A stretch of DNA of 64,000 nucleotides, taken from contig JAQVJR010000001.1 in the NCBI GenBank assembly GCA_028695015.1, positions 33,645 through 97,644 on the forward strand. The letters are read 5' to 3'. Shown here one piece after another: positions 269-58,920 of this stretch. Below the pieces are notes generated by a model. It saw only the letters and a list, made by a program, of their open reading frames with translations, was not told the origin of the DNA and ran no database searches. Position numbers and translations under genes: made by a program. Position 1 is the stretch's first letter; each line of letters begins with the position of its first letter. Source of the stretch: Minisyncoccota bacterium (GTDB lineage Bacteria > Patescibacteriota > Minisyncoccia > UBA6257).

Positions 269-367
269 TTCTCTCCACCTCCTTTCTTTTTTTTAATTTA
301 ATTTTCAAAGTACAAAATCTCTTGTTTTAATAATATCTCTTTATTGTCTTTTTGTCAAGAATGAAAA

Positions 368-470
368 TGATAAAAAATGCTGCCGTCCTTGGCAAGCCAA
401 AAACGACAGCATTAGCAGTATAGCAAATCCAAAAATCTTGTCAAGTCTATTGTGGATAACTTAAAAGATA
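368..470 (-). promoter_or_regulatory. conserved intergenic module copy 1: -35 TTGACA (439-444), -10 TATACT (417-422), two-tier hairpin 376-413 + U-run
   Basis: Read directly from sequence. A second promoter (TTGACA 353-358 … TATTAT) lies downstream of the hairpin, ahead of the gene at 268. Confidence 0.6.
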
Positions 471-483
471 AAAAAACAGGGTC

Positions 484-3395: not shown

Positions 3396-3440
3396 AAAAA
3401 CCTTTATTCTTATTATACAGAAAAAAGAGTTTAATTAAAA

Positions 3441-3540
3441 TAAAAAAAATGCTGCCGCTTCTGGCAAGCCAAAAACGACAGCATTATTAGTATAGCAAAT
3501 CTTAAAACCTTGTCAAGTCTTTTGTGGATAACTTAAGAAA
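3441..3540 (-). promoter_or_regulatory. conserved intergenic module copy 4 (hairpin 3449-3485; -10 3489-3494; -35 3511-3516; upstream-gene terminator 3546-3568)
   Basis: Read directly from sequence. Confidence 0.6.
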
Positions 3541-3586
3541 TACAAAACAGGGCTAAAAAGCCCTGTTTTTATCCAATTTCTAATCT

Positions 3587-5824
3587 TTAAACTCTTTTTC
3601 CTCTAAAGATAAAATAAGCTAAGCCACCTAAGGCTAAAACAGCTAATAAAGCTATTATGGCTCCTTTATTAGTTGCTGCTTCTTCTTCGGTTTCTTCTAG
3701 TTCTATTGTTTCTATATCTTCAGTTTCTAAAATTTCCATTACTTCTTCTTCCTCTTCTGGTTCTTGCTCAGAACTAACAGGAGTATCTAAAACATCTCCT
3801 TCTGGCACTGAACCATCATCAGCTAAGGCAATAGATTCTCCTAAAACCAATCCTTCACCTAAGCCAAAACATGTTTCATCAGAAATATCTGGTTTCATTT
3901 CAGGACAAAAGATATTATTAATTGCCCATCTGGTAGTTCTATAAACATAACCAGTAGCCATTTCTTCTGAAGACAAACATCCATTAGCAACCCAAGGAGC
4001 TAAAATATCATCCTTGAGCATGGTTTGGAATGTTTTTACTGCATTAAATGTATCTAAATCATAAATTCCATTAACATCTAAATTCAATCCCAAATATCCA
4101 TTTAAGAAGATTTGGAGTTTTCTAACTTCAAATGGATCATTATTAGCTCCATATTGAATGTATTCATGTAGATAAGGAACACAAGCAACACCAGCTACAA
4201 TACCCTCATCTCTTATGGTAGATTCACCTGCTATAGTACCTGATGAAAAACCTCCGCCTCCACCTCCGCCACCACCAGTAGGAGTTCCTCCAGATTCTTC
4301 GGTTTCTGTGTTAGATTGCTCTTCAGGTGGCTCAACACAACGATATACTTTAAGGTCTAAACTTCCTGTATTATCATCCATAGCTCCTTGGTCTTGATAA
4401 GAATTATACCAAGAATTGTACCAATCAGAAATGACAAAACTAACATTTACTTCTTCTTCTCCACTAATATGATAAGCTTTTTGGTATATATGTTCTGAAT
4501 TATAATCCCCCCAAGTAACTACCCCCATTTTGCCGGTTCCCATATCAGAAAGAAGTGATAACACTCCACGATATGGATTTCCTTTAATGCCTACGTCATC
4601 TCTTGGTATTGTTTTCCAACTATCTTTAGTGCCATAGCCTGCATCTGCTTTTTTATTCTCCTCTTTGCCACTATATTTATACACTCCAGAAACCTCAAAA
4701 AGATAATCGCCTGGATTTAAATCTATATTTTGTCCAATGCTATCTTGAGAATCAATATTTATTTCTTTAAACGGCTCTTCTTCTCTCTTGGTCCCTGACG
4801 GACAATCATGGTTTCCATTATACACAGGAACTAACTTGCACGTTTCCGTACAAAAATTACTTCCATCTTCAGCAACTCCTTCAAGCCCATCACATTCTTC
4901 ATCTCCTTCTTTTTTTCCATTACCACATTCTCCTGCTGCTTCTTCTGGCACTTCTAATACATTATAAGCTATACAATAAACATTTTCAGGCCATTGTGAA
5001 GTGTCGTTTCCTAATTGTATAAATTCTTTATTATCACCATTAACTGCATCCTTATAACAACGAAGAGCTGCAAATTTAGTTGCTCCTTCCATTGCTGGGC
5101 TATTATTTAAATCTTCACTAACCCATAATTGACCACCTTCAGTTAGTTGGTTTTGTTGTTCTGGTTTTAGTTCAGAAAAAGAAATGGGTTCATTAGAATT
5201 TACAGTGCTAACATTTGTTTCTTGTTCTTCATCTGTAGAAATTATAAATTGCCAGCCTCTTGCTAAATAGCAAACTCCAGGAATCTCATCTGGATCAACT
5301 GGCTTACCATTATTGTATGAACTGGGAAAACTATTTTCTTGATAATTAGCAAACTCTGTATATTTTTCCCCAGTAGCATCTAAGTGCTCTGCATTAGCAT
5401 TTCCATTAATATCTCCCCAAGATGGACATATCACTTTTATAAAATGAAAACTGGAGTTTATTGTTTCAGACGATCCATTGTCTCCTCCTGAACTTTCGCC
5501 ACAATACCCATGCTCGTGACAATGATTATGTTCTTGTCCTTGTCCTTGTCCTTGTCCTTGCCCTTGTCCTTGCCCTTGTCCTTGTCCTTGTCCTTGTCCT
5601 TGTCCTTGTCCTTGCCCTTGTCCTTGCCCTTGTCCTTGCCCTTGTCCTTGTCCTTGCCCTTGTCCTTGCCCTTGTCCTTGCCCTTGTCCTTGTCCTTGTC
5701 CTTGCTTATTCCCTGCTTCTATTATCCCTGGCTTCAACATCAATCCATTAGTAATTAACAAACTTAATACTATTACAATTGCAAATGTTTTTGTAAGAAA
5801 TTTTTTGTTCATATTTTTTTTCAA
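3587..5824 (-). CDS. large secreted surface protein: (GQ)32 repeat, Myxococcus-type Cys-rich repeat, peptidoglycan-binding domain, poly-Gly, acidic tail, C-terminal TM anchor
   Basis: 745 aa with signal peptide. A 32x Gly-Gln run comes from the CCTTGY hexanucleotide array. CGNGKKEGDEECDG…C…C resembles the Myxococcus Cys-rich repeat. LQIFLNGYLGLNLDVNGIYDLDTFNAVKTFQ resembles PG_binding_1. There is a GGGGGGGGG run, an EEEEE-rich tail and a C-terminal hydrophobic helix ending RGKRV. Confidence 0.7.
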   Translation of the reverse strand: MKKNMNKKFLTKTFAIVIVLSLLITNGLMLKPGIIEAGNKQGQGQGQGQGQGQGQGQGQGQGQGQGQGQGQGQGQGQGQGQGQGQGQGQGQGQGQGQEHNHCHEHGYCGESSGGDNGSSETINSSFHFIKVICPSWGDINGNANAEHLDATGEKYTEFANYQENSFPSSYNNGKPVDPDEIPGVCYLARGWQFIISTDEEQETNVSTVNSNEPISFSELKPEQQNQLTEGGQLWVSEDLNNSPAMEGATKFAALRCYKDAVNGDNKEFIQLGNDTSQWPENVYCIAYNVLEVPEEAAGECGNGKKEGDEECDGLEGVAEDGSNFCTETCKLVPVYNGNHDCPSGTKREEEPFKEINIDSQDSIGQNIDLNPGDYLFEVSGVYKYSGKEENKKADAGYGTKDSWKTIPRDDVGIKGNPYRGVLSLLSDMGTGKMGVVTWGDYNSEHIYQKAYHISGEEEVNVSFVISDWYNSWYNSYQDQGAMDDNTGSLDLKVYRCVEPPEEQSNTETEESGGTPTGGGGGGGGGFSSGTIAGESTIRDEGIVAGVACVPYLHEYIQYGANNDPFEVRKLQIFLNGYLGLNLDVNGIYDLDTFNAVKTFQTMLKDDILAPWVANGCLSSEEMATGYVYRTTRWAINNIFCPEMKPDISDETCFGLGEGLVLGESIALADDGSVPEGDVLDTPVSSEQEPEEEEEVMEILETEDIETIELEETEEEAATNKGAIIALLAVLALGGLAYFIFRGKRV
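5531..5706. repeat. hexanucleotide microsatellite (CCTTGY)n, ~30 units, encoding (GQ)32 on the minus strand
   Basis: Perfect or near-perfect tandem array. Confidence 0.9.
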
Positions 5825-7039: not shown

Positions 7040-7111
7040 CAAGATAGTATATATGATAAATAAAAATTGTCAAGTCTTTTATCCACAATCTCATAATTTC
7101 ACAAACTATGG

Positions 7112-7212
7112 AATAAAAAATGCTGTCGCCCTTGGCAAGCCAAAAACGACAGCATTATTAGTATATCAAATCCAAAACCCTTGTCAAGTCTATTGGGGAT
7201 AACTTTTAAAAT
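7112..7212 (-). promoter_or_regulatory. conserved intergenic module copy 5 (hairpin 7119-7156; -10 7160-7165; -35 7182-7187; terminator 7216-7242)
   Basis: Read directly from sequence. What follows downstream is another promoter and a candidate sRNA, not a protein gene. Confidence 0.6.
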
Positions 7213-7247
7213 GAAAAAGGGACTATATTATATAGTCCCTTTTGATT

Positions 7248-7922
7248 TTAATAGTACTCAATACTTTGTGCTGTTACATAGACCACCCTCTTAGTTGGAG
7301 AGAGTTTAATCTTCACTTGTTTAGCTTTCTTTTCTCCAGCTAATCCTTCCTTCAAGTCTACACATTTGACCACTTGTGAATCATCTTCAAAGGTTATCAT
7401 AAAGCAAACCTTTTCCACTGTCACTTTTTCTCCCTTGAAGTTTTGCATTTCAAAATCTACAAATACATCACCCCAGGTCAAATAGCAACAACAGGGTCCA
7501 GAAGGAGGACAAATTGGACAAACACACTCTGGGCATTCATCACAAATACACTCTGGACATTCATCACATATACACTCTGGGCAATCTTCACAAACAGGAC
7601 AATCTGGGCAACAAGAATCACAAGCAGGGCAAGTTGGACAACAAGAATCACAAGCGGGGCAATTACATGGTGGACATGTAGGTGGTGGACAAGGAGGATA
7701 GCAATAACCACATCTTGTCATCAAATCCCTAGGTAAATCACCATTAGCAACTCTTGTTATGCCTTTTGAAGAGTCACAAGAAACCTCTTGCTCAAAGCCA
7801 GTTACCCAAACTTCTACATCTTCTGTTATTGAAGGAATGATTGATCCACTCTTACATCCAGTTAAGAACAATACCATTAAAACCATTGCTAAGATTAACA
7901 ATCTTTTTCTCATTTTTTTCAC
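7248..7922 (-). CDS. lipoprotein with extreme Cys/Pro-rich tandem-repeat core (CPxC / ICDECPEC units)
   Basis: 224 aa with lipobox LFLTGC. A 75-aa stretch contains about 40 Cys (CYPPCPPPTCPPCNCPACDSCCP…CDECPECICDECPECICDECPECVCPICPP…CCC). Consensus promoter and AGGAGGTG SD lie upstream. Confidence 0.65.
   Translation of the reverse strand: MKKMRKRLLILAMVLMVLFLTGCKSGSIIPSITEDVEVWVTGFEQEVSCDSSKGITRVANGDLPRDLMTRCGYCYPPCPPPTCPPCNCPACDSCCPTCPACDSCCPDCPVCEDCPECICDECPECICDECPECVCPICPPSGPCCCYLTWGDVFVDFEMQNFKGEKVTVEKVCFMITFEDDSQVVKCVDLKEGLAGEKKAKQVKIKLSPTKRVVYVTAQSIEYY
7523..7670. repeat. tandem 24-nt repeats (x3) plus ~33-nt repeats (x2) encoding ICDECPEC / CDSCCPxCPAC units
   Basis: acactctgggcattcatcacaaat, acactctggacattcatcacatat and acactctgggcaatcttcacaaac in tandem. 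Confidence 0.8.
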
Positions 7923-7998: not shown

Positions 7999-8046
7999 TA
8001 TATAAGGTTTAAATTAAAAAGGGAAGACTTATCTTCCCCTTATTTG

Positions 8047-9213
8047 TTATTTAGTAAAATTATCCTGAATTACTTGTAAAACTGGTTTATCCCAGATAGC
8101 CCAACTCCGATCATTTTCTTCAGATTTAGCTGTTGGCCAATAAAACCAGAACGCTCCTGCCCACCAACTTTCTTTCTCAAACACGTTAAATAATGCTTGA
8201 GTCGCTAAAATTTGTTCTTCTGGACTATAAACCTCTCTGCCTTTTTCTCCCCTTGGAACTTTATCCTCACTATTCCAAGGCTCCATACTGGTGCCTTCTG
8301 TACTTCGATATCCAATTTCAGAAAATATCATCTTTTGGTTAAAGGTTTTTGCTATTGTTTCTAATTGCTTTACTATATTTTGATTACCATGCCTGCTTTC
8401 AAACCAAGCCCTTTCTATATCTTCTAAACTTGGATTAAGCTTTTTAGTCAAATCAAAATAAGGAGCCATAGAGATAATATCTAGATCTTTTAACCAGTCT
8501 AAAGTTAATGTTCTTTTAAAAGTTATCTCTTGCCACCAACAATTAAGCTTAGCGGTTATTAATCCCTGATATTGTTCTTTTATCTTGTAGATAAGATGCC
8601 TCCATCTCTGATCTTCTGGCCAAAGAGAATGAAATTCATTGCCTATGCAAAAAAGTTCCACCCCACAAGCCTCTGCTAAACCAGCATAATAAATTAAGGC
8701 ATTACCATAAGAAATAAACCATTGATTAATATCTTTTGGCTCTAAGCTAGCAACATAATCCCTATCCTCTCCTACGATAAGATCTGGTAATAAAGAAACT
8801 TTTTTTCCAGCTTGATGAATCATCGTAATCATGCTTTCTAAAGTTAAATCTTGAGTTTGGTCATATATTACTTGATTAGAGTCTAAAGTCTTTTGATACA
8901 AAAAAAACCTTAATTGAACATAGTTAATTTCTTGAATTTTCAAAAGGTTTTCTAAAGCATTAAAGGCTTCTAAGCTAGAATATGGATGAGGATCTGGATA
9001 AAAATCTATTCCCCTAAATTCTAAATCATTTTCCTTTATCAACCCGGTTTCTTTAGCCAATGACTCTATTACAAATTCTTCAGTGTAAATATAGTAATCT
9101 TTTTCATCTCTTAATTTAAGAAAAAAAGAAAATGTGTTCTTGATTTCTATTAAAGAAATAACCAAACAAATTAAGATTACCATAGTTATCACTATTCTTT
9201 TTTTAACATCCAT
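8047..9213 (-). CDS. membrane-anchored clan GH-A glycoside hydrolase (GH5/GH113-like)
   Basis: 388 aa with N-terminal TM. CIGNEFH (acid/base NE) and FSEIGY (nucleophile E) are spaced as in (beta/alpha)8 GH-A enzymes, and it has an aromatic-rich C-terminus. Confidence 0.55.
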   Translation of the reverse strand: MDVKKRIVITMVILICLVISLIEIKNTFSFFLKLRDEKDYYIYTEEFVIESLAKETGLIKENDLEFRGIDFYPDPHPYSSLEAFNALENLLKIQEINYVQLRFFLYQKTLDSNQVIYDQTQDLTLESMITMIHQAGKKVSLLPDLIVGEDRDYVASLEPKDINQWFISYGNALIYYAGLAEACGVELFCIGNEFHSLWPEDQRWRHLIYKIKEQYQGLITAKLNCWWQEITFKRTLTLDWLKDLDIISMAPYFDLTKKLNPSLEDIERAWFESRHGNQNIVKQLETIAKTFNQKMIFSEIGYRSTEGTSMEPWNSEDKVPRGEKGREVYSPEEQILATQALFNVFEKESWWAGAFWFYWPTAKSEENDRSWAIWDKPVLQVIQDNFTK

Positions 9214-10610
9214 TATTGATCACCTCCTTGCTCTAATTGTCGCAGAAGATTAATGTCATAAACCGTTCTCGGACGAGATATGTTTTGATCGCCATAATGA
9301 ACTGTTTTAGTTTCTTGCCATGATTTTACTCCTAAGCTATACAAACTGCACCAAAGCCAATGAAATCCAAAAATCCAATACACTGGTAAAAACAAAGCTC
9401 TTTTCCAGCCTCTTTTTTTAATACTATTGTAAAAAAGAAAACCAAAAAAAGTACTTGTCCAAATTAACCAAATCCAACCAGTAATATTAAAAATGGACAC
9501 TTGATTGGTTAAATAGTAAAACCAATAAAGAAAATTACTTGCCCACCAAGCAAACACTGATAAAGGGCTTAAACGATAAGCATAATCTAACCAATTGCCA
9601 AATCTATGCAAATTATCCCAAGTCACTCTTAAATGCCCTTTAATCCATCGGGACCTTTGTTTCATAACTCCACTCCAAGAAGGCGGTTTTTCATCATAAA
9701 CCACAAGATTATCTGCAAAGATAATTTTCTTATTTTCTAGAGTTAATCTAGTAAATAATTCAAAATCTTCTACTAAAGAATTAGTCCATCCTTCTGCTTC
9801 TTGTAAGACTCTAGTTCGGATAAATATTCCTGTGCCTGCTAAAAAACAAGGCAATTTAAAAACATCTCTTCCTCGCCATGAAATAGAAGAAAAAGTATCA
9901 TATTCCACTTCTTGAAGAAATGTCAAAATTGAAGAATACATATTGCTTGTTGAAAGCTCTGCCTGAATTGCATCAATTTCTTCATTTTTGAAATAAGCCA
10001 TTGCCCGGTTAAACAATTTTTTATCCTTTATCCTATTATCAGTATCAAATTGAGCAATAATCTTCCCTTTTGCCGCTTTTAATCCTTCATTTAAAGCTAA
10101 GGCTTTGCCTGATTTACGAGTTTGAATATCTAATACCTTAATCCTTTCATCACTTACAGATTTTGCATTCCTAATAGTATTATCAGTACAATTATGGGCC
10201 AAAACCAGAATTTCCAAGTTTTTGTATTCTTGACAAATTAAATCATTCAGAATGTTTCTTATGACTTTCTCCTCATTATGAGCCGGAATCATTACTGAAA
10301 TCAAAACTGAATCATCTTCTTCTATCTTATCTTCTTTTTTATTATAAAAGATACTGGCCACTCCCATTAAGACCCAAATAAACATACTGAGATACATTAA
10401 GACTACACATAGCAACAAGAAAAAAGGAAACTGAATATCCAAGGAAAAAAAAGCAAAACGATTACTTAAAACCAACCCTTTGCCTACCCCAAATACTTGT
10501 AAGACAGTCATCAGTAAAATAGAGATAACATATGCTGACAGAACAGTTGTAGCACAAGCATAAACAAAATCTTCTAAAGAAAAAATCCCTAATTTTCTAA
10601 GAATTTTCAC
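9213..10610 (-). CDS. processive family-2 glycosyltransferase (membrane polysaccharide synthase; D,D,D,QxxRW type)
   Basis: 465 aa with multiple TM helices, a PAHNEE…FDTDN (DxD) motif and a QRSRW motif typical of cellulose/chitin/PNAG-synthase-like GT2 enzymes. Confidence 0.75.
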   Translation of the reverse strand: MKILRKLGIFSLEDFVYACATTVLSAYVISILLMTVLQVFGVGKGLVLSNRFAFFSLDIQFPFFLLLCVVLMYLSMFIWVLMGVASIFYNKKEDKIEEDDSVLISVMIPAHNEEKVIRNILNDLICQEYKNLEILVLAHNCTDNTIRNAKSVSDERIKVLDIQTRKSGKALALNEGLKAAKGKIIAQFDTDNRIKDKKLFNRAMAYFKNEEIDAIQAELSTSNMYSSILTFLQEVEYDTFSSISWRGRDVFKLPCFLAGTGIFIRTRVLQEAEGWTNSLVEDFELFTRLTLENKKIIFADNLVVYDEKPPSWSGVMKQRSRWIKGHLRVTWDNLHRFGNWLDYAYRLSPLSVFAWWASNFLYWFYYLTNQVSIFNITGWIWLIWTSTFFGFLFYNSIKKRGWKRALFLPVYWIFGFHWLWCSLYSLGVKSWQETKTVHYGDQNISRPRTVYDINLLRQLEQGGDQ

Positions 10611-11310
10611 TTATATCTTCCTCCTTTATTAATTTAACTTTACCAAAATAAGCATTATCAACAAAAACTTGACCTATTCCTTTAAATTCTAAGACTGGAT
10701 CCCCTTTCCAAGCATCTGATGGAGAATAAACTAATAAGCCAATATATTTCCAATCTCCATAACTGCTGCCAGAAATCCAAGGGCCATAAGAAGCATATCT
10801 AGGATACCTGCCATCACCTATTCGAAAAAACTGATGAGCTAATCTAAATCCCCCTTCCTGAATTTCATACTTTACCCAAAATGACACATAGTATAATTCT
10901 TCTATTTCTACATTGGGTTTAAAAAATATATCAGGCACTGCAATAGCCCCATGATCCATTTTACTAAACCCTTGAATCATAAAAGATCGTCTTCCCATAT
11001 AACTATCCTTAGAGCATACAAAAGACACATCTCCAAAGAATATTTCTCCACCCCAAGGATAAGGCCTAAACCCATTAATGTCTGAAAAAACATCTAAAGA
11101 TTTGGGCACAAATTCAAAAGAATTGTTTTCAAACATGGCTTCACTTGAATGACTAGGTCTTGGCAAAATACAATAACCTTCAGGCAACTTAACACTATCT
11201 AGTAAAATCGGGGCATTAGCTCTTAGTTCTGCTGCTCCATAATTTAAAACAGGAATAAAGCTTAAAAACACCAATAGCAAAAAAGACAACAATACTAAAA
11301 ATCTTTTCAT
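10597..11310 (-). CDS. secreted hypothetical protein, first gene of the GT2/GH module
   Basis: 237 aa with signal peptide. Overlaps the GT2 start by 14 nt, consistent with an operon. Confidence 0.5.
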   Translation of the reverse strand: MKRFLVLLSFLLLVFLSFIPVLNYGAAELRANAPILLDSVKLPEGYCILPRPSHSSEAMFENNSFEFVPKSLDVFSDINGFRPYPWGGEIFFGDVSFVCSKDSYMGRRSFMIQGFSKMDHGAIAVPDIFFKPNVEIEELYYVSFWVKYEIQEGGFRLAHQFFRIGDGRYPRYASYGPWISGSSYGDWKYIGLLVYSPSDAWKGDPVLEFKGIGQVFVDNAYFGKVKLIKEEDISENS

Positions 11311-11425
11311 TTCTTTCTCTCCTTTCTTTTTTATTTAATTTTCAAAGTTCTTAATTGAGTTATAATATATCTTTATTATAAGTTTGTCAAGGATTAAAGA
11401 TATAAAACTTCCTAAATAATATAAG

Positions 11426-11525
11426 GTAAAAAAATGCTGCCGCTTCTGGCAAGCCAAAAACGACAGCATTATTAGTATATCAAATCTTAAAACCTTGTCA
11501 AGTCTATTGTGGATAACTTAAAACC
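11426..11525 (-). promoter_or_regulatory. conserved intergenic module copy 6 (hairpin 11433-11470; -10 11474-11479; -35 11496-11501; terminator 11521-11542)
   Basis: Read directly from sequence. Confidence 0.6.
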
Positions 11526-11547
11526 AATCTAATATTGGTTTTAATAG

Positions 11548-11970
11548 TTAATTATCCAACAATTCTTGCTCTCTCTGTATTATCCTTTCAGTAAGCTCCA
11601 TATAATGCTCCATATCTTCCATTAACAAATCAGTATAGGCGCTAAAGTTATCCTCAGTTACTCCATATTTGCGATACAAATCTTCATGATGTGATAATAA
11701 ATTCAGAGGATCTGTCTGCATATAATAAGAGAGTTGGGCTACTATTTCAACATAAACATCATCTGTCATAGCGCCTATGCCTCCACTAGATGCTTCAGAA
11801 GAAGCACCTGAATCTTCATGAGATGTTTCAGAAGGCATTTCAGATGATTCACTAATGCCAGGGATCTCTGTACCAACTCTATCTTTTGTTGATTGCCAAA
11901 CAACAATCCCTATCACTATTATTAAAATAATTGCAACAATTAACCAAATCTGTTTTGAATTAATTTTCAT
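11548..11970 (-). CDS. signal-anchored protein with Ser/Glu-rich low-complexity region
   Basis: 140 aa with N-terminal TM. Flanked by module copy 6 and a terminator hairpin. Confidence 0.5.
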   Translation of the reverse strand: MKINSKQIWLIVAIILIIVIGIVVWQSTKDRVGTEIPGISESSEMPSETSHEDSGASSEASSGGIGAMTDDVYVEIVAQLSYYMQTDPLNLLSHHEDLYRKYGVTEDNFSAYTDLLMEDMEHYMELTERIIQREQELLDN

Positions 11971-12140: not shown

Positions 12141-12365
12141 TTACTCTTCAACAACTTCTTCCACTTCTTCTACCTCTTCTTCAGGAACAGGTAAAACTGT
12201 TTCTTCTTCTATTTCAGGCATTGGCTCTTCTTCTATTTCCTCTTCAGGAATGATAGGAAGAGGTTCTTCAGTTTCTTCTATGGTTTCTGAAGAGCGAATA
12301 ATCATGAAAATGACAATCACTAAAACGATAACAATGCCAATAATTAACCAAGTTTTATTCTTCAT
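12141..12365 (-). CDS. small membrane protein with acidic (E-rich) tail
   Basis: 74 aa with one TM helix then EEPLPIIPEEEIEEE…. Chosen over the overlapping plus-strand Ser-rich ORF because of gene polarity and the TM pattern. A bidirectional terminator hairpin at 12093-12122 lies downstream. Confidence 0.4.
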   Translation of the reverse strand: MKNKTWLIIGIVIVLVIVIFMIIRSSETIEETEEPLPIIPEEEIEEEPMPEIEEETVLPVPEEEVEEVEEVVEE

Positions 12366-12507: not shown

Positions 12508-12581
12508 TGGGTGATGCTGGATTTGAACCAGCGGCCTCGTCGATGTGAACGACGCGCTCTAAACCACTGAGCTAATCACCC
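12508..12581 (-). tRNA. tRNA-Val (anticodon CAC)
   Basis: Manual cloverleaf: acceptor GGGTGAT/ATCACCC, D-arm GCTC…GAGC, anticodon stem CGTCG/CGACG, loop TTCACAT, T-arm GCTGG-TTCAAAT-CCAGC. No encoded CCA. Confidence 0.8.
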
Positions 12582-14183: not shown

Positions 14184-14255
14184 AGCCCATGGCCGGACTT
14201 GAACCGACAACCTACTGTTTACGAAACAGTTGCTCTGCCATTGAGCTACATGGGC
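14184..14255 (-). tRNA. tRNA-Thr (anticodon CGT)
   Basis: Acceptor GCCCATG/CATGGGC, D-arm GCTC-AATGGCA-GAGC, anticodon stem ACTGT/ACAGT, loop TTCGTAA, T-arm GTCGG-TTCAAGT-CCGGC. Confidence 0.8.
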
Positions 14256-16004: not shown

Positions 16005-17087
16005 ATGAAAGATTTACAAAATAAGAAAATAGTTGTCGGCTTATCAGGTGGCATTGATTCTGCTATTGCTTTAATTTTATTAAAACAACAAGGGTGGCAA
16101 CCTATTGGTGTTTTTTTAAAATTACCTCTTTGGCAAAACAATACTAATGCTTTTTCAAAAAACATTTATCAATCAGAACAATCTTTAAAAACAGCCATTG
16201 ATATTTGTAAAAAACTAGATGTTCCTTTTTATACTATTGATGCTAAAAAAGAATTTGAAAAAGAAGTTGTTGAATACTTTGTAAAAGAGTGGAAAAGCCT
16301 AAGAACGCCTAATCCTTGTGTTGTTTGTAATCCTAATTTTAAATTCAAACAATTAATCAATTGGGCTAAAAAACATAAAATTCAATACATTGCCACTGGC
16401 CATTATGCTAAATTAAAATTAAACCCCAAAACCAAATTATATGAATTATTTAGAGCCAAAGACAAAACCAAAGACCAAACCTATGATCTTTGTCTCTTGC
16501 CTCAAAAATGGCTTAAGCAAATCATTTTCCCTTTAGGAGATTATACTAAACAACAAGTTTATCAAATAGCTAAAAAACAAGGATTAAAAACCTTTTCTCA
16601 AAAAAAAGAAAGCCAGGATTTCTGTTTTATTGCTGGACAATCTCTTTGTCCCTTTTTAAAAGAAAAAATAGGAGAAAAACAAGGATTAATTACTGATTTA
16701 GAAAACAATGTTTTATCTAAACATCAAGGATTGCATTTTTATACCTTAGGCCAAAGAAAAGGTATTAAACTTGCTAATGGACCATATTTTGTCTTTGGTT
16801 TTGATAAAAAAAGAAATACCCTTTTAGTAACTAAAAATAAAAAAGACCTCTTTAAAAAAGAAATCTTAATTCATCCTTATCAATTAATTTCTGGACAAAA
16901 GATTCAAAAACCTATCAAAGCCCAAGTTCAAATCCGTTATCAACAAAAACCTTGTTCAGCCAAATTAATCCCTCAAAAAAACAAATTAAAAATAATGTTC
17001 TCAAAACCTATTCTTGCTCCTTGCCCAGGCCAATTTGCTGTTTTCTATGAAAAAAACAAATGCCTTGGTGGTGGTAGAATAATTTGA
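16005..17087 (+). CDS. mnmA: tRNA-specific 2-thiouridylase
   Basis: PP-loop motif VVGLSGGIDSAIA. Start taken at MKDLQNKK (internal ATG) to avoid overlapping iscU; the ORF track starts at 15954. Confidence 0.85.
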   Translation: MKDLQNKKIVVGLSGGIDSAIALILLKQQGWQPIGVFLKLPLWQNNTNAFSKNIYQSEQSLKTAIDICKKLDVPFYTIDAKKEFEKEVVEYFVKEWKSLRTPNPCVVCNPNFKFKQLINWAKKHKIQYIATGHYAKLKLNPKTKLYELFRAKDKTKDQTYDLCLLPQKWLKQIIFPLGDYTKQQVYQIAKKQGLKTFSQKKESQDFCFIAGQSLCPFLKEKIGEKQGLITDLENNVLSKHQGLHFYTLGQRKGIKLANGPYFVFGFDKKRNTLLVTKNKKDLFKKEILIHPYQLISGQKIQKPIKAQVQIRYQQKPCSAKLIPQKNKLKIMFSKPILAPCPGQFAVFYEKNKCLGGGRII

Positions 17088-17157
17088 GCGGGATACGAGA
17101 ATCGAACTCGCGCCTTAACCTTGGGAAGGTTACATACTACCATTATACGAATCCCGC
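17087..17157 (-). tRNA. tRNA-Gly (anticodon CCC)
   Basis: Acceptor GCGGGAT/ATCCCGC, anticodon stem TAACC/GGTTA, loop TTCCCAA, T-arm GCGAG-TTCGATT-CTCGT. Abuts the mnmA stop on the opposite strand. Confidence 0.75.
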
Positions 17158-22717: not shown

Positions 22718-22783
22718 CTTTATATTATTAAATTTTACTATAAAAACTTGAAATAATCAAAAAAAGAGGTTATAATATAAAAG

Positions 22784-23128
22784 ATTGAACTGGGCAGCTA
22801 CTGGGATATAATACCCAGAGGAAAGTCCGAACACCAACAATGACCTAATTGTTAAAAGGTAGCAGCTAACAGCTGTCGTTAAGCGTTTAACGCTTAATAG
22901 AGGTGCGAACAGAGACGTTGTGTTTTGAAAAAAATACAACCTCCTTATAGGAGGAGCCCTAAAAGCAATTTTAGGAGTGAAACGGCTAAATCCTTGCTGG
23001 GTGCAAGGTCCGGGCCAAGCCTTAAGCTTGGAGTGACCGCTTGACCTTAATGGCAACATTAAGGCTAGATAAATGGCTGCCGCCTAATCCTTAAAGATTA
23101 GGTACAGAATTCGGCTTATAGGTTCAAT
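22784..23128 (+). ncRNA. rnpB: RNase P RNA (bacterial type)
   Basis: Contains GAGGAAAGTCCG (P4 5' strand) and ACAGAATTCGGCTTATAG (P4 3' strand, consensus ACAGAAnCCGGCUUA). Terminal pairing TTGAACT/AGGTTCAA. Candidate promoter TTGAAA-N18-TATAAT at 22747-22776, and an intrinsic terminator at 23143-23166. Confidence 0.85.
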
Positions 23129-23142
23129 TAATAAATGATAAC

Positions 23143-58846: not shown

Positions 58847-58920
58847 TCGGGGCACTGGGACTCGAACCCAGAGTCACACGCACCCCATGCGTGTATGTTA
58901 GCCAATTACACCATGCCCCG
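58847..58920 (-). tRNA. tRNA-Pro (anticodon GGG)
   Basis: Acceptor CGGGGCA/TGCCCCG (C1:G72, typical of tRNA-Pro), anticodon stem CACGC/GCGTG, loop ATGGGGT (G37), T-arm CTGGG-TTCGAGT-CCCAG. Confidence 0.8.

What the first reader, a model, noticed from the sequence alone, without database searches (positions are those of the whole stretch)
8047..11310. Three-gene exopolysaccharide module: secreted protein – processive GT2 synthase – membrane-anchored GH-A hydrolase
Overlapping start/stop codons (10597/10610 and 9213) indicate one operon.

The synthase has the D,D,D,QxxRW signature of membrane-embedded processive beta-glycan synthases. It is directly coupled to a clan GH-A (GH5/GH113-like) hydrolase, echoing the BcsA/BcsZ and PgaC/PgaB logic of a synthase plus a trimming hydrolase.

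The first gene (237 aa, secreted) is unassigned and could be a glycan-binding or export component. Polymer identity cannot be read from the sequence. The GH-A fold would fit a beta-mannan or glucomannan-type polymer, but that is speculative.
Basis: partly seen in the sequence, partly recalled or inferred. Interest (0 to 1): 0.5.

Follow-up and report, generated by a model that had tools for sequence, protein, structure and literature searches.

The report
Three-gene polysaccharide synthase operon
A tiny uncultivated (Paceibacteria/CPR) bacterium carries a compact, conserved three-gene operon that most likely makes, holds and trims a surface polysaccharide: a known kind of machine built partly from unusual parts, with the sugar polymer still unknown.

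Summary
Three minus-strand genes (10597-11310, 9213-10610, 8047-9213) overlap by 14 nt and 1 nt. Each has its own Shine-Dalgarno site, and the unit sits between a promoter-like site and a terminator hairpin.

- **Gene 2** is a membrane GT2 with a cellulose-synthase-like fold. DxD, ED and QRxRW are invariant, but the first canonical Asp is an invariant His (HNCxD). It is nearest PgaC/IcaA and BcsA but an orthologue of neither, and it has no PilZ domain.
- **Gene 3** is an N-terminally anchored GH113. Both catalytic Glu residues (E193, E299) align with AaManA E151/E231.
- **Gene 1** has no Pfam family. It folds as a beta-jelly-roll resembling CBM4/9/22/70 modules.

The order gene 1, GT2, GH113 recurs in at least 10 independent loci. 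In some loci the gene-1 domain is fused to GH113. In others a PgaB-like CE4 deacetylase is fused to GH113.

Best reading: a minimal synthase-dependent polysaccharide system (synthase, glycan-binding partner, trimming hydrolase), closest in logic to clostridial CcsA/CcsB/CcsZ.

The polymer is unresolved. The CE4 fusions and the PgaC affinity favour an N-acetylhexosamine polymer. The GH113 family favours beta-mannan.

Verdict: a new variant of a known kind, of moderate interest.

The parts
11433..11470 (-). Upstream boundary: 17-bp hairpin plus T-run. It ends the preceding transcription unit and belongs to a repeated promoter-plus-hairpin element.
   Evidence: -24.9 kcal/mol, z -6.3.
11362..11390 (-). 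Promoter-like site for the operon (TTGACA-17-TATTAT).
   Evidence: 11 of 12 positions match. This is a consensus match only; function is not shown.
10597..11310 (-). Gene 1: 237-aa extracytoplasmic CBM-like beta-jelly-roll protein. SD AAGGAG at 11324-11319.
11245..11301 (-). Gene 1 N-terminal hydrophobic segment (residues 4-22): a signal peptide or an uncleaved membrane anchor.
   Evidence: Kyte-Doolittle 2.92. Many orthologues have R or W at the -3 position of the would-be cleavage site. The same segment is a TM helix in the P0059 fusion.
10624..11127 (-). Gene 1 conserved beta-sandwich domain (residues about 62-229), rich in invariant aromatic residues.
9213..10610 (-). Gene 2: 465-aa membrane GT2 synthase with a GTG start. 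SD AAGGAGG at 10626-10620.
10350..10577 (-). GT2 N-terminal transmembrane helix pair (residues 12-39 and 62-87).
9678..10301 (-). GT2 cytoplasmic GT-A catalytic domain (residues 104-311).
10182..10196 (-). HNCTD (H139-D143): the clade-specific replacement of the canonical first Asp ('DDG/DGSTD') by His.
   Evidence: H139, N140 and D143 invariant in 42 of 42; aligned to D in BcsA and PcManGT.
10038..10046 (-). DxD motif (D189-T-D191).
   Evidence: invariant in 42 of 42.
9765..9770 (-). ED motif (E281-D282). It occupies the position of the catalytic base in BcsA 'TED' and PgaC 'TED'.
9645..9659 (-). QRSRW (Q318-W322) on the interfacial helix.
9336..9593 (-). GT2 C-terminal transmembrane helices (residues about 340-425, three helices). 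There is no PilZ domain.
   Evidence: (no PilZ hit).
8047..9213 (-). Gene 3: 388-aa type-II-anchored GH113 glycoside hydrolase. SD AAGGAGG at 9229-9223.
9139..9195 (-). GH113 N-terminal membrane anchor (residues 7-25, preceded by KKR).
8110..8982 (-). GH113 (beta/alpha)8 catalytic domain (residues 78-368).
   Evidence: PF22612, E 3.2e-37.
8635..8640 (-). N192-E193, the acid/base Glu. It aligns with AaManA E151.
   Evidence: (E in 47 of 48).
8317..8319 (-). E299, the nucleophile Glu. It aligns with AaManA E231.
   Evidence: (E in 47 of 48).
8018..8041 (-). Intrinsic-terminator-like hairpin plus T-run that ends the operon.

Best explanation
This is a self-contained, vertically inherited three-gene operon of a Paceibacteria (CPR) bacterium. 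It most likely encodes a minimal synthase-dependent surface or exo-polysaccharide machine.

**Proposed mechanism**
1. The GT2 has two N-terminal and three C-terminal TM helices around a cytoplasmic GT-A domain, and no c-di-GMP (PilZ) module. It polymerises a beta-linked glycan from a cytoplasmic nucleotide sugar and threads it across the single membrane, as BcsA, PgaC and hyaluronan synthases do.
2. Gene 1 is a CBM4/9/22-like beta-jelly-roll held at the outer face by its N-terminal hydrophobic helix. It binds the emerging chain and may contribute a helix to the synthase. That would make it a functional analogue, not a homologue, of BcsB or clostridial CcsB.
3. The membrane-anchored retaining GH113 cuts, or possibly transglycosylates, the chain. 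This would release it, size it or clear a stalled synthase, as BcsZ, CcsZ and the PgaB hydrolase domain do.

**Shown here:** gene structure, family assignments, catalytic motifs, folds, conserved gene order, and the two kinds of domain fusion.

**Inferred:** processivity, translocation, glycan binding by gene 1, trimming by GH113, and the polymer itself.

**Polymer, rough probabilities:**
- an N-acetylhexosamine-containing beta-glycan (GlcNAc or ManNAc type), about 0.45
- beta-1,4-mannan or glucomannan, about 0.25
- something else, about 0.3
For: **Operon anatomy.**

**GT2**
- Pfam GT2 families at E 4e-27.
- The best curated family is PgaC_IcaA, at E 1.3e-27 over residues 69-365.
- 23% identity to E. 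coli PgaC (E 1.5e-21) and 22% to BcsA (E 6e-10).
- The clade profile hits BcsA at E 1e-26, including TM regions.
- GKALALN, DxDN, GTG, ED and QRxRW are invariant in 42 clade members.

**GH113**
- PF22612, 128.9 bits. The profile hits only GH113 mannanase structures, at 1e-40 to 1e-35.
- E193 and E299 align with AaManA E151 and E231 and are conserved in 47 of 48 sequences.
- N-terminal anchor.

**Gene 1**
- 9 of 15 members give weak CBM_4_9 matches.

**Functional linkage**
- The same gene order occurs in L001, L002, L006, L007/8, L011-L014 and L022/23. The GT2 there is 43-77% identical to the window's (65% in L001); in L009 it is 36%.
- Flanking genes differ between distant loci.
- In L009/L010 the gene-1 domain is fused to GH113 through two TM helices, so both domains face outward. 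hhalign gives probability 99.4 and E 1e-21.

**Hint that the polymer is acetylated**
- In L001 an orthologous triad carries CE4 fused to GH113.
- The closest solved relatives of that CE4 domain are the PNAG deacetylases PgaB and BpsB, and PplD.

**Precedents**
- ccsZABHI combines a GT2 synthase, a membrane-bound CBM11-like CcsB and the GH5 enzyme CcsZ (PMC7710045).
- The same paper notes a C. difficile locus with a synthase, GH113, CE4 and WecB.

**Substrate availability.** MurJ in the window implies peptidoglycan synthesis and therefore a UDP-GlcNAc pool. This step is inference.
Against: - No biochemical data exist for any member of the clade.
- The GT has only about five TM helices, fewer than the channel-forming set of BcsA. 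A translocation channel may need partner helices. PgaC, for comparison, needs PgaD.
- The canonical nucleotide-contacting Asp is His. The donor and the chemistry may therefore be atypical.
- QxxRW-type motifs also occur in some non-processive GT2 enzymes such as ceramide glucosyltransferase, which the clade profile hits at 5e-10.
- The window's own operon has no deacetylase, and no CE4, WecB or second synthase lies within the 64 kb.
- All characterised GH113 enzymes degrade exogenous mannans. None is known to have a biosynthetic role.
Confidence: 0.68

Rival explanations
1. The system is a true PNAG (poly-beta-1,6-GlcNAc) system. The GT2 would be a divergent PgaC/IcaA. GH113, with CE4 in some relatives, would replace PgaB.
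For: - PgaC_IcaA is the best curated family hit.
- PgaC scores better than BcsA in BLASTP.
- CE4-GH113 fusions have PgaB-like domain order.
- The nearest solved relatives of that CE4 are the PNAG deacetylases PgaB and BpsB. It also shares their atypical 'WPY/YPY' third motif, which lacks Arg.
Against: - TIGR03937 scores 96.8 bits against an equivalog cut-off of 422.3.
- There is no PgaD- or IcaD-like gene.
- GH113 shows no detectable relation to the PgaB GH153 domain (hhalign probability 0.2).
- GH113 enzymes are known to cut beta-1,4 bonds, not beta-1,6.
- The window's operon has no deacetylase.
- The CE4 matches to PDB are weak (E 5e-4).
Confidence: 0.15
2. The product is a beta-1,4-mannan or glucomannan, or a ManNAc-rich polymer, made from a mannose-configured donor. 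GH113 would act on it as a genuine beta-mannanase.
For: - Every solved or characterised GH113 hit is a beta-1,4-mannanase.
- The closest structural neighbour of the GT2 is the GDP-Man-binding PcManGT.
- PMC7710045 argues that a C. difficile locus with a synthase, GH113, CE4 and WecB makes a ManNAc-rich EPS.
- A sister subgroup of the HNCxD GT2 clade sits next to a GH38 alpha-mannosidase-like gene.
Against: - No GDP-mannose or UDP-ManNAc pathway gene lies in the window.
- The GH113 is only about 25% identical to characterised mannanases, so its specificity may differ.
- PcManGT keeps the canonical Asp that is His here, and its alignment ends before QxxRW.
- By sequence the GT2 is nearer PgaC/IcaA.
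Confidence: 0.25
3. The GT2 is not a polymer synthase. It would be a PcManGT-, GtrB- or ceramide-glucosyltransferase-like enzyme that adds a single sugar to a lipid or lipid-linked glycan. Gene 1 and GH113 would then remodel a cell-surface glycoconjugate.
For: - The GT2 has only about five TM helices.
- The clade profile also hits ceramide glucosyltransferase.
- Homologues carry Glyco_transf_21 matches.
Against: - QRxRW and GTG are invariant and align with the BcsA QxxRW and 'FFCGS' region. The PcManGT alignment stops before QxxRW.
- The alignment to BcsA and HAS covers the TM helices, 356-374 residues.
- Obligate coupling to an extracytoplasmic endo-type GH and a CBM-like domain, and to a polysaccharide deacetylase in orthologues, fits a polymer better than a single-sugar lipid.
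Confidence: 0.12
4. The locus is catabolic. GH113 and the CBM-like protein would scavenge exogenous or host beta-mannan, and the GT2 would be an unrelated neighbour.
For: Known GH113 enzymes are catabolic mannanases. CBMs typically serve degradative enzymes.
Against: - The GT2 lies between the two genes with overlapping reading frames.
- It stays there in at least 10 independent loci across 36-77% identity while the flanks change.
- No transporter or downstream sugar-catabolism gene accompanies the triad.
- The Armatimonadota GH113 that is not adjacent to a GT2 lacks the membrane anchor. The anchored form therefore appears to go with the synthase.
Confidence: 0.04

Closest known systems
Clostridial cellulose synthase locus ccsZABHI (CcsA GT2-PilZ, CcsB, CcsZ GH5); Scott et al. 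2020, PMC7710045
   Same: Both occur in monoderm-type envelopes. Both combine a membrane GT2 synthase, a membrane-held extracellular protein predicted to be a CBM-type beta-jelly-roll, and a clan GH-A retaining hydrolase, with no outer-membrane porin. In the P0059 fusion the gene-1 domain is bracketed by TM helices, exactly as described for CcsB.
   Different: - The hydrolase is GH113, not GH5.
- The GT2 has no PilZ domain and belongs to a different clade (HNCxD).
- Gene 1 shares no detectable sequence family with any named protein.
- There is no MBOAT/DHHW acetylation pair.
- The polymer is probably not cellulose.
E. coli PgaABCD / staphylococcal IcaADBC PNAG systems
   Same: The GT2 is nearest to PgaC/IcaA among curated families. 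Orthologous loci carry CE4 followed by a TIM-barrel hydrolase in one protein, the domain order of PgaB. That CE4 is nearest to the PgaB and BpsB deacetylase domains.
   Different: - The GT2 scores far below the equivalog cut-off (96.8 against 422 bits).
- There is no PgaD/IcaD and no PgaA.
- The hydrolase is GH113 rather than GH153, with no detectable homology.
- The window's operon has no deacetylase.
- There is no c-di-GMP link.
BcsA/BcsB/BcsZ bacterial cellulose synthase
   Different: - TIGR03030 scores 32 bits against a cut-off of 699.
- There is no PilZ domain.
- There are five TM helices rather than eight.
- Gene 1 is not homologous to BcsB.
- The hydrolase is GH113, not GH8.
C. difficile 630 BcsA/B-like locus with GH113, WecB and a CE4-like deacetylase (a prediction in PMC7710045)
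   Same: This is the only prior mention I found of a GH113 sitting beside a synthase-type GT2 and a deacetylase. It was interpreted as a partially deacetylated ManNAc-rich EPS system.
   Different: That locus has a BcsB homologue and a WecB epimerase. This one has the novel gene-1 family, and no epimerase lies in the window. I could not retrieve the C. difficile sequences with the tools available, so homology to the present GT2 and GH113 is untested.
GH113 beta-mannanases AaManA (3CIV/4CD6), BaMan113A (7DV7), AxMan113A (5YLH)
   Same: Same Pfam/CAZy-type family, same catalytic Glu pair, and full-length domain alignment.
   Different: The known enzymes are soluble and catabolic and act on plant mannans. 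This clade is membrane-anchored, translationally coupled to a synthase, and only about 25% identical.
PcManGT, Pyrobaculum calidifontis membrane GT2 mannosyltransferase (6YV7)
   Different: PcManGT keeps the canonical first Asp. It has no N-terminal TM pair, and its alignment ends before QxxRW. To my knowledge it is not a polymer synthase.

Membership tests
Glycosyltransferase family 2 (GT-A, inverting) | Match to the GT2 Pfam models above the gathering score. | tested here: met
   PF13641 96.1 bits (cut-off 27), PF00535 71.2 (23.3), PF13632 60.5 (27).
Processive membrane GT2 synthases (BcsA/PgaC/HAS/CHS type) | D,D,D,QxxRW signature. | tested here: inconclusive
   DxD, ED and QRSRW are present and invariant. 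The first Asp position is an invariant His (H139), with D143 conserved four residues later.
Processive membrane GT2 synthases (BcsA/PgaC/HAS/CHS type) | GT-A domain embedded between TM helices, with an interfacial helix carrying QxxRW (the cellulose-synthase-like fold). | tested here: met
Processive membrane GT2 synthases (BcsA/PgaC/HAS/CHS type) | Processive polymerisation coupled to translocation. | not testable with these tools
   This needs an in vitro or in vivo product analysis. The best structural hit, PcManGT, is not a polymer synthase.
PNAG synthase PgaC/IcaA (TIGR03937 equivalog) | Score at or above the curated equivalog cut-off. | tested here: not met
   96.8 bits against 422.3; 23% identity to E. 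coli PgaC.
PNAG synthase PgaC/IcaA (TIGR03937 equivalog) | Small membrane partner PgaD/IcaD encoded alongside. | tested here: not met
   There is no such ORF in the operon and no PgaD match in the window.
Cellulose synthase BcsA (TIGR03030) | Score at or above the cut-off, and a C-terminal PilZ domain. | tested here: not met
   32.2 bits against 699.1. There is no PilZ hit, and the protein ends 40 residues after its last TM helix.
Glycoside hydrolase family 113 (clan GH-A) | Family-model match over the whole catalytic domain. | tested here: met
   PF22612 E 3.2e-37, 128.9 bits (cut-off 27), residues 78-368. The clade profile hits only GH113 structures, at 9.6e-41 to 8e-35.
Glycoside hydrolase family 113 (clan GH-A) | Acid/base Glu after beta-4 (the 'NE' motif) and nucleophile Glu after beta-7. 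| tested here: met
   E193 aligns with AaManA E151 and E299 with E231. Both are conserved in 47 of 48 clade members.
Glycoside hydrolase family 113 (clan GH-A) | beta-1,4-mannanase or mannosidase activity. | not testable with these tools
   An enzyme assay is needed. Identity to characterised members is only about 25%.
Carbohydrate-binding modules of the CBM4/9/22 (Pfam CBM_4_9) type | Family-model match above the gathering score. | tested here: not met
   The window protein scores E 0.15, 12.9 bits, against a cut-off of 25.9. Nine of 15 relatives match weakly, the best at E 8e-4. The resemblance is at fold level only.
Carbohydrate-binding modules of the CBM4/9/22 (Pfam CBM_4_9) type | beta-jelly-roll fold. 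| tested here: met
Carbohydrate-binding modules of the CBM4/9/22 (Pfam CBM_4_9) type | Demonstrated glycan binding. | not testable with these tools
   Binding assays are needed.
Synthase-dependent exopolysaccharide systems (Bcs, Pga, Pel, Alg, Ccs, Pss) | A membrane synthase co-encoded with an extracytoplasmic polymer-modifying or polymer-cleaving enzyme. | tested here: met
   Overlapping genes, with synteny conserved in at least 10 loci.
Synthase-dependent exopolysaccharide systems (Bcs, Pga, Pel, Alg, Ccs, Pss) | Post-translational control by c-di-GMP (a PilZ, GGDEF-I-site or similar receptor). | tested here: not met
   None of the three proteins contains a receptor domain. Only the unrelated Armatimonadota locus has a GGDEF neighbour.

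The most novel reading that the evidence does not exclude
The triad would be a previously unrecognised class of minimal cell-surface glycan assembly line in CPR and other uncultivated monoderm-type bacteria.

- The His-for-Asp synthase clade would use an unusual donor or a different way of gripping the nucleotide.
- The new CBM-like protein would be an obligatory synthase subunit, supplying a TM helix and a chain guide, as BcsB and PgaD do.
- The membrane-anchored GH113 would work mainly as a transglycosylase. It would graft the nascent chain onto the wall or onto the neighbouring surface proteins, rather than act as a simple trimming hydrolase.

The polymer could then be the scaffold for the cluster of large surface proteins that follows the operon in several genomes. 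It might also take part in episymbiont attachment.
Probability: 0.1. Interest if true: 0.7.

Novelty: new variant of a known kind. Interest (0 to 1): 0.45.

Why it matters
Synthase-dependent polysaccharide systems have been defined almost entirely in cultivated Proteobacteria and Firmicutes. This locus shows the same three-role logic (polymerise and translocate, bind, cut) reduced to about 3.3 kb in a genome-reduced CPR bacterium, using parts not previously assigned to such systems:

- a GH113, a family so far known only as catabolic mannanases;
- a rare, unnamed CBM-like domain family, with 41 clusters among 1.84 billion representatives;
- a GT2 clade with an invariant His where the nucleotide-contacting Asp normally sits.

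If confirmed, it would give a small, tractable model for how a synthase and a non-BcsB glycan-binding partner cooperate. It would extend GH113 biology to biosynthesis. It would also identify a surface polymer of Paceibacteria, whose envelopes and host-attachment factors are essentially unknown.

It does not overturn any concept. The kind of system is familiar.

Tried and rejected
- **Homology of GH113 to the PgaB GH153 domain.** hhalign probability 0.2. Rejected.
- **Homology of gene 1 to BcsB.** hhalign probability 0.5 and nothing in BLASTP. Rejected; the similarity is functional and topological only.
- **Gene 1 against Pfam, NCBIfam and PDB by sequence.** No significant hit. Only sub-threshold CBM_4_9 matches across the family.
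- **CE4, WecB, PgaD or a second synthase in the 64-kb window.** None found by tblastn. Pfam scans of 20 other window ORFs found no nucleotide-sugar genes.
- **Horizontal island.** Rejected.
  - GC content is the same as in the surroundings.
  - The whole neighbourhood (DUF4012, MurJ, LepA, MnmA, NifU/S, rplJ/L, then the triad) is syntenic in relatives whose gene 1 is 60% identical.
- **Polymer identity from the GT2 fold search.** Not decisive, because PcManGT, BcsA and HAS all score highly.
- **His139 as a marker of GDP-sugar use.** Not supported, because GDP-Man-binding PcManGT keeps Asp at that position.
- **Literature.** Searches for GT2 with GH113 systems in CPR found nothing beyond PMC7710045. 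The Actinoplanes sporangium-matrix hydrolase paper does not involve GH113. GH113 structural papers giving subsite residues were not in the library.
- **afdb50 fold search of gene 1.** The library was unavailable.

Full report
**1. The observation**

The three ORFs exist exactly as described, all on the minus strand: 10597-11310 (237 aa, ATG), 9213-10610 (465 aa, GTG) and 8047-9213 (388 aa, ATG).

Reading the sequence gives the following.
- Gene 1 ends with TAG at 10599-10597, inside gene 2, whose GTG is at 10610. That is a 14-nt overlap.
- Gene 2 ends with TAA at 9215-9213, and its last base is the A of the gene 3 ATG.
- Each start has a Shine-Dalgarno sequence 8-9 nt upstream: AAGGAG 11324-11319, AAGGAGG 10626-10620 and AAGGAGG 9229-9223.

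The unit is bounded as follows.
- A promoter-like site TTGACA-17-TATTAT lies at 11390-11362.
- A 17-bp hairpin with a T-run precedes it at 11470-11433 (-24.9 kcal/mol, z -6.3).
- A 10-bp hairpin with a T-run follows the unit at 8041-8018 (-12.5 kcal/mol, z -3.1).
- A perfect-consensus promoter for the next gene lies at 7998-7970.

So the three genes form one compact transcription unit. GC content (0.32) matches the surroundings.

**2. The organism and the neighbourhood**

All three proteins are 100% identical to proteins of a 'Candidatus Pacebacteria' MAG, on a contig of 327,676 bp. There, genes 1 and 3 are annotated as hypothetical.

- Upstream in the direction of transcription lie rplJ/rplL, a tRNA and two small acidic membrane proteins. 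Further upstream are NifS/NifU/MnmA, LepA, MurJ and DUF4012.
- This whole arrangement, ending in the triad, is conserved in relatives whose gene 1 is about 60% identical (L022, L023, L013).
- The operon is therefore vertically inherited and is not an island.
- Downstream lie genes for secreted or surface proteins.

**3. Gene 2, the glycosyltransferase**

*Family placement*
- It matches the Pfam GT2 models (Glyco_tranf_2_3, E 4e-27).
- Among NCBI's curated families the best match is PgaC_IcaA (E 1.3e-27, residues 69-365). At 96.8 bits it is far below the 422-bit equivalog cut-off.
- CelA (32 bits) and NodC (29 bits) score lower still.
- By BLASTP it is 23% identical to E. coli PgaC (E 1.5e-21) and 22% to BcsA (E 6e-10).

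*Structure*
- An AlphaFold model built on 47 sequences is confident (pLDDT 90.2, pTM 0.88).
- It shows two N-terminal TM helices, a GT-A domain, an interfacial helix carrying QRSRW and three C-terminal TM helices.
- A clade profile hits BcsA (1e-26, including TM segments) and PcManGT (1.5e-26) equally well. The PcManGT alignment stops before QxxRW.

*Motifs*
- In 42 clade members the following are invariant or nearly so: GKALALN (168-174), D189-x-D191-N, G259-T-G261, E281-D282 and Q318-R-x-R-W322.
- The position of the first canonical Asp, the second D of BcsA 'DDG' and the D of PgaC 'NDGSTD', is an invariant His in an HNCxD motif. From my own knowledge of the BcsA structures, this Asp contacts the nucleotide base.
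- PcManGT, which binds GDP-Man, keeps Asp there. The His therefore does not simply indicate a GDP-sugar donor, and its meaning is unknown.
- There is no PilZ or other regulatory domain.

*Conclusion.* This is a cellulose-synthase-fold membrane GT2 in its own clade. It is very probably a polymer synthase, but processivity is inferred.

**4. Gene 3, the hydrolase**

- Pfam assigns it to GH113 (PF22612, E 3.2e-37, residues 78-368).
- phmmer against the PDB finds only GH113 beta-1,4-mannanases: AaManA 3CIV/4CD6 at 6e-16, BaMan113A 7DV7 and AxMan113A 5YLH.
- A 28-sequence profile raises these hits to 1e-40 to 1e-35, with nothing else significant.
- In the AaManA alignment, E193 (in GNE) falls on E151 and E299 (in SEIG) falls on E231, the published catalytic pair.
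- N192, E193 and E299 are conserved in 46-47 of 48 clade members.
- Residues 7-25 form a hydrophobic helix preceded by KKR. This predicts an N-in, C-out anchor with the catalytic domain outside the cell.
- There is no detectable relation to the GH153 domain of PgaB.

**5. Gene 1**

- It has no Pfam, NCBIfam or PDB sequence match.
- Only 18 homologues were found in the 5.8-billion-protein set.
- A profile search of 1.84 billion representatives found 41 clusters. Some are domains inside large surface proteins that also carry Laminin_G_3, DUF2341 or Big_5 domains.
- The AlphaFold model (pLDDT 80.9) has an N-terminal helix followed by an all-beta sandwich.
- Nine of 15 family members give weak matches to Pfam CBM_4_9, the best at E 8e-4.
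- Many invariant residues are aromatic, including W86, F144, W145, Y140, W187 and W201. This is typical of glycan-binding faces, though that reading is inference.
- The N-terminal hydrophobic stretch is 19 residues long.
- Many orthologues have R or W at the -3 position of the would-be signal-peptidase site.
- I therefore think gene 1 is more likely membrane-tethered than released, but this is not settled.

**6. Evidence that the three genes work together**

- tblastn of the three proteins against all fetched loci shows the order gene 1, GT2, GH113 in L001, L002, L006, L007/L008, L011, L012, L013 and L014, and in L022/L023. In those loci the GT2 is 43-77% identical to the window's; in L009 it is 36%.
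- The genes there overlap or sit within 23 nt of each other.
- Flanking genes differ completely between distant loci.
- In L009/L010 the system has two genes. The GT2 is followed by a 627-aa protein with this layout:
  - a TM helix;
  - a gene-1-like domain (hhalign probability 99.4, E 1e-21);
  - two TM helices with a Lys-rich loop between them;
  - a GH113 domain.
- With that topology both domains face outward. This is a Rosetta-stone fusion linking gene 1 to GH113, and it shows the gene-1 domain working while tethered to the membrane.
- In L001, where the GT2 is 65% identical, the GH113 carries an N-terminal CE4 polysaccharide-deacetylase domain.
  - Its closest solved relatives are the PNAG deacetylase domains of PgaB and BpsB, and the GlcNAc deacetylase PplD. 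These matches are weak (E 5e-4 to 7e-4), but they are the top three.
  - It has the metal-binding and catalytic DD and HxxxH motifs, and the PgaB-like Arg-less third motif.
- The module is rare. The GTDB species-representative scan found five loci: two Paceibacterota, one labelled Saccharibacteria, one unclassified and one Bacillota MAG with the domain only.
- A second subgroup of the HNCxD GT2 clade (about 380 aa, 36-42% identical) has neither GH113 nor gene 1 nearby.
- An unanchored GH113 in Armatimonadota is not adjacent to a GT2.

**7. How it most likely works**

The synthase polymerises and exports a beta-glycan. The CBM-like protein receives the chain at the outer face. The anchored GH113 cuts it.

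This matches the three roles seen in BcsA/BcsB/BcsZ. It matches the clostridial ccs system even more closely. There, CcsB is a membrane-bracketed protein predicted to be CBM11-like, and CcsZ is a clan GH-A GH5 enzyme (PMC7710045).

The GT2 has only about five TM helices, whereas PgaC needs PgaD and BcsA needs the BcsB anchor. I therefore suggest that the gene-1 helix, the GH113 helix or both pack against the synthase. This is inference.

GH113 enzymes are reported to transglycosylate (PMC4237917 abstract). A grafting role therefore cannot be excluded.

**8. The polymer**

*For an N-acetylhexosamine polymer*
- The GT2 has PgaC/IcaA affinity.
- Orthologues carry CE4-GH113 fusions with PgaB-like order and PgaB-like CE4.
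- PMC7710045 argues that a synthase, GH113, CE4 and WecB locus makes a deacetylated ManNAc-rich EPS.
- MurJ in the window implies that UDP-GlcNAc is available.

*For beta-mannan*
- Every characterised GH113 is a beta-1,4-mannanase.
- PcManGT is the top fold hit for the GT2.

*Against certainty either way*
- The window's operon has no deacetylase or epimerase.
- The GH113 is only about 25% identical to known enzymes.
- The donor site is atypical.

My estimates are about 0.45 for a HexNAc-type polymer, about 0.25 for mannan or glucomannan, and about 0.3 for something else.

**9. Comparison with known systems, and novelty**

By membership, the locus contains a GT2 and a GH113.
- It is not a Pga, Ica or Bcs orthologue. 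The curated cut-offs are missed by a wide margin, and there is no PgaD and no PilZ.
- Gene 1 belongs to no named family.
- By function it is a synthase-dependent polysaccharide system.

The combination of parts is not described in the literature I could search. The combination is:
- a membrane-anchored GH113 as the cognate hydrolase;
- a new CBM-like partner family;
- the HNCxD synthase clade;
- the absence of c-di-GMP control;
- a CPR host.

The exception is a passing note on a GH113 near a C. difficile synthase. I therefore rate this a new variant of a known kind.

**10. Verdict**

It can now be sharpened: the hydrolase is GH113, gene 1 has a CBM-like fold, the fusions tie the components together, and the first motif Asp is His. 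Interest is moderate at 0.45. It would be useful to polysaccharide-synthase and CPR-envelope specialists, but it is not conceptually surprising.

Noticed in passing
window 330-480, 1133-1283, 2002-2152, 3402-3552, 7073-7223, 11387-11537 (all minus strand); also L024-L033: A conserved element of about 95 nt occurs six times in the first 11.5 kb, always in intergenic DNA just after a gene's stop codon.
- Its layout is: a DnaA-box-like TTATCC(A/C)CA, then TTGACA, 16 nt, (TG)nTATACT, 4 nt, a 17-21-bp hairpin and a T-run.
- The hairpin comes in two sequence variants with compensatory changes (G-C to A-U, U-A to U-G). These keep the pairing only in the minus-strand RNA.
- All four hairpins that were folded give about -24.5 to -24.9 kcal/mol (z about -6.3 to -6.8).
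- There is no Rfam match at gathering threshold.
- A metagenome scan found 16 further copies on 10 contigs, all with the promoter-plus-hairpin layout.
- One copy lies directly upstream of the operon's own promoter.

It could be a dispersed tiny (about 45 nt) RNA gene, a leader attenuator or insulator, or a mobile intergenic repeat. It is unexplained.
   Followed up: partly
window 3587-5824 (-): A 745-aa secreted or anchored protein has about 30 consecutive Gly-Gln repeats near its N-terminus and an acidic, TM-anchored C-terminus, with no Pfam domain. Segments of it (residues about 320-670) have homologues a few kb downstream of the triad in two distant loci: L009 at 50% identity and L007 at 37-49% identity. 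This hints at a recurrent association between this surface protein and the polysaccharide operon.
   Followed up: partly
window 7248-7922 (-): A 224-aa lipoprotein-like protein immediately follows the operon under its own perfect-consensus promoter (7998-7970). It contains a block of CPxC/CPEC repeats encoded by 24-30-nt DNA repeats and matches no Pfam family. A homologue of its N-terminus also follows the triad in L012.
   Followed up: partly
L001 2511-4379 (P0032); also P0033: A CE4 deacetylase is fused to GH113 in one 606-622-aa protein. This is the same domain order as PgaB (CE4 plus GH153), but with an unrelated hydrolase family. The contig is binned as 'Heimdallarchaeaceae archaeon', yet its three genes are 57-65% identical to the Paceibacteria ones, which suggests a binning error.
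   Followed up: partly
P0151-P0153, P0161, P0169, P0172, P0175 (no window coordinates): The gene-1-type domain also occurs inside very large predicted surface proteins, up to 3,042 aa, some with three copies. Partners include Laminin_G_3, DUF2341 and Big_5 domains. It is therefore a mobile extracellular module and not only a synthase partner.
   Followed up: partly
L004 7001-14484 (Armatimonadota, GCA_031432545.1): An unanchored GH113, 41% identical, lies near SpoIID, a GGDEF protein, a 978-aa GHL10-DUF2334 protein and a PgaC-like GT2. This may be a different, c-di-GMP-linked PNAG-like locus that also has a GH113 nearby.
   Followed up: no
L019 2298-7173: A shorter subgroup of the same HNCxD GT2 clade (390 aa) is translationally coupled to a 96-aa ORF. 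It sits beside a 1,092-aa GH38 alpha-mannosidase-like protein instead of GH113 and gene 1.
   Followed up: no
window 11548-11970 and 12141-12365 (-): Two small single-pass membrane proteins (140 and 74 aa) with very acidic, Glu/Ser-rich tails lie between rplL and the operon. A small ORF occupies the same position in relatives (L022 9429-9626). Their function is unknown.
   Followed up: no
window 22782-23134 (+): RNase P RNA (class A, 106.7 bits) lies on the plus strand in a region where nearly every gene is on the minus strand. Four tRNA genes lie at 12508-12581, 14184-14255, 17087-17157 and 58847-58920.
   Followed up: no
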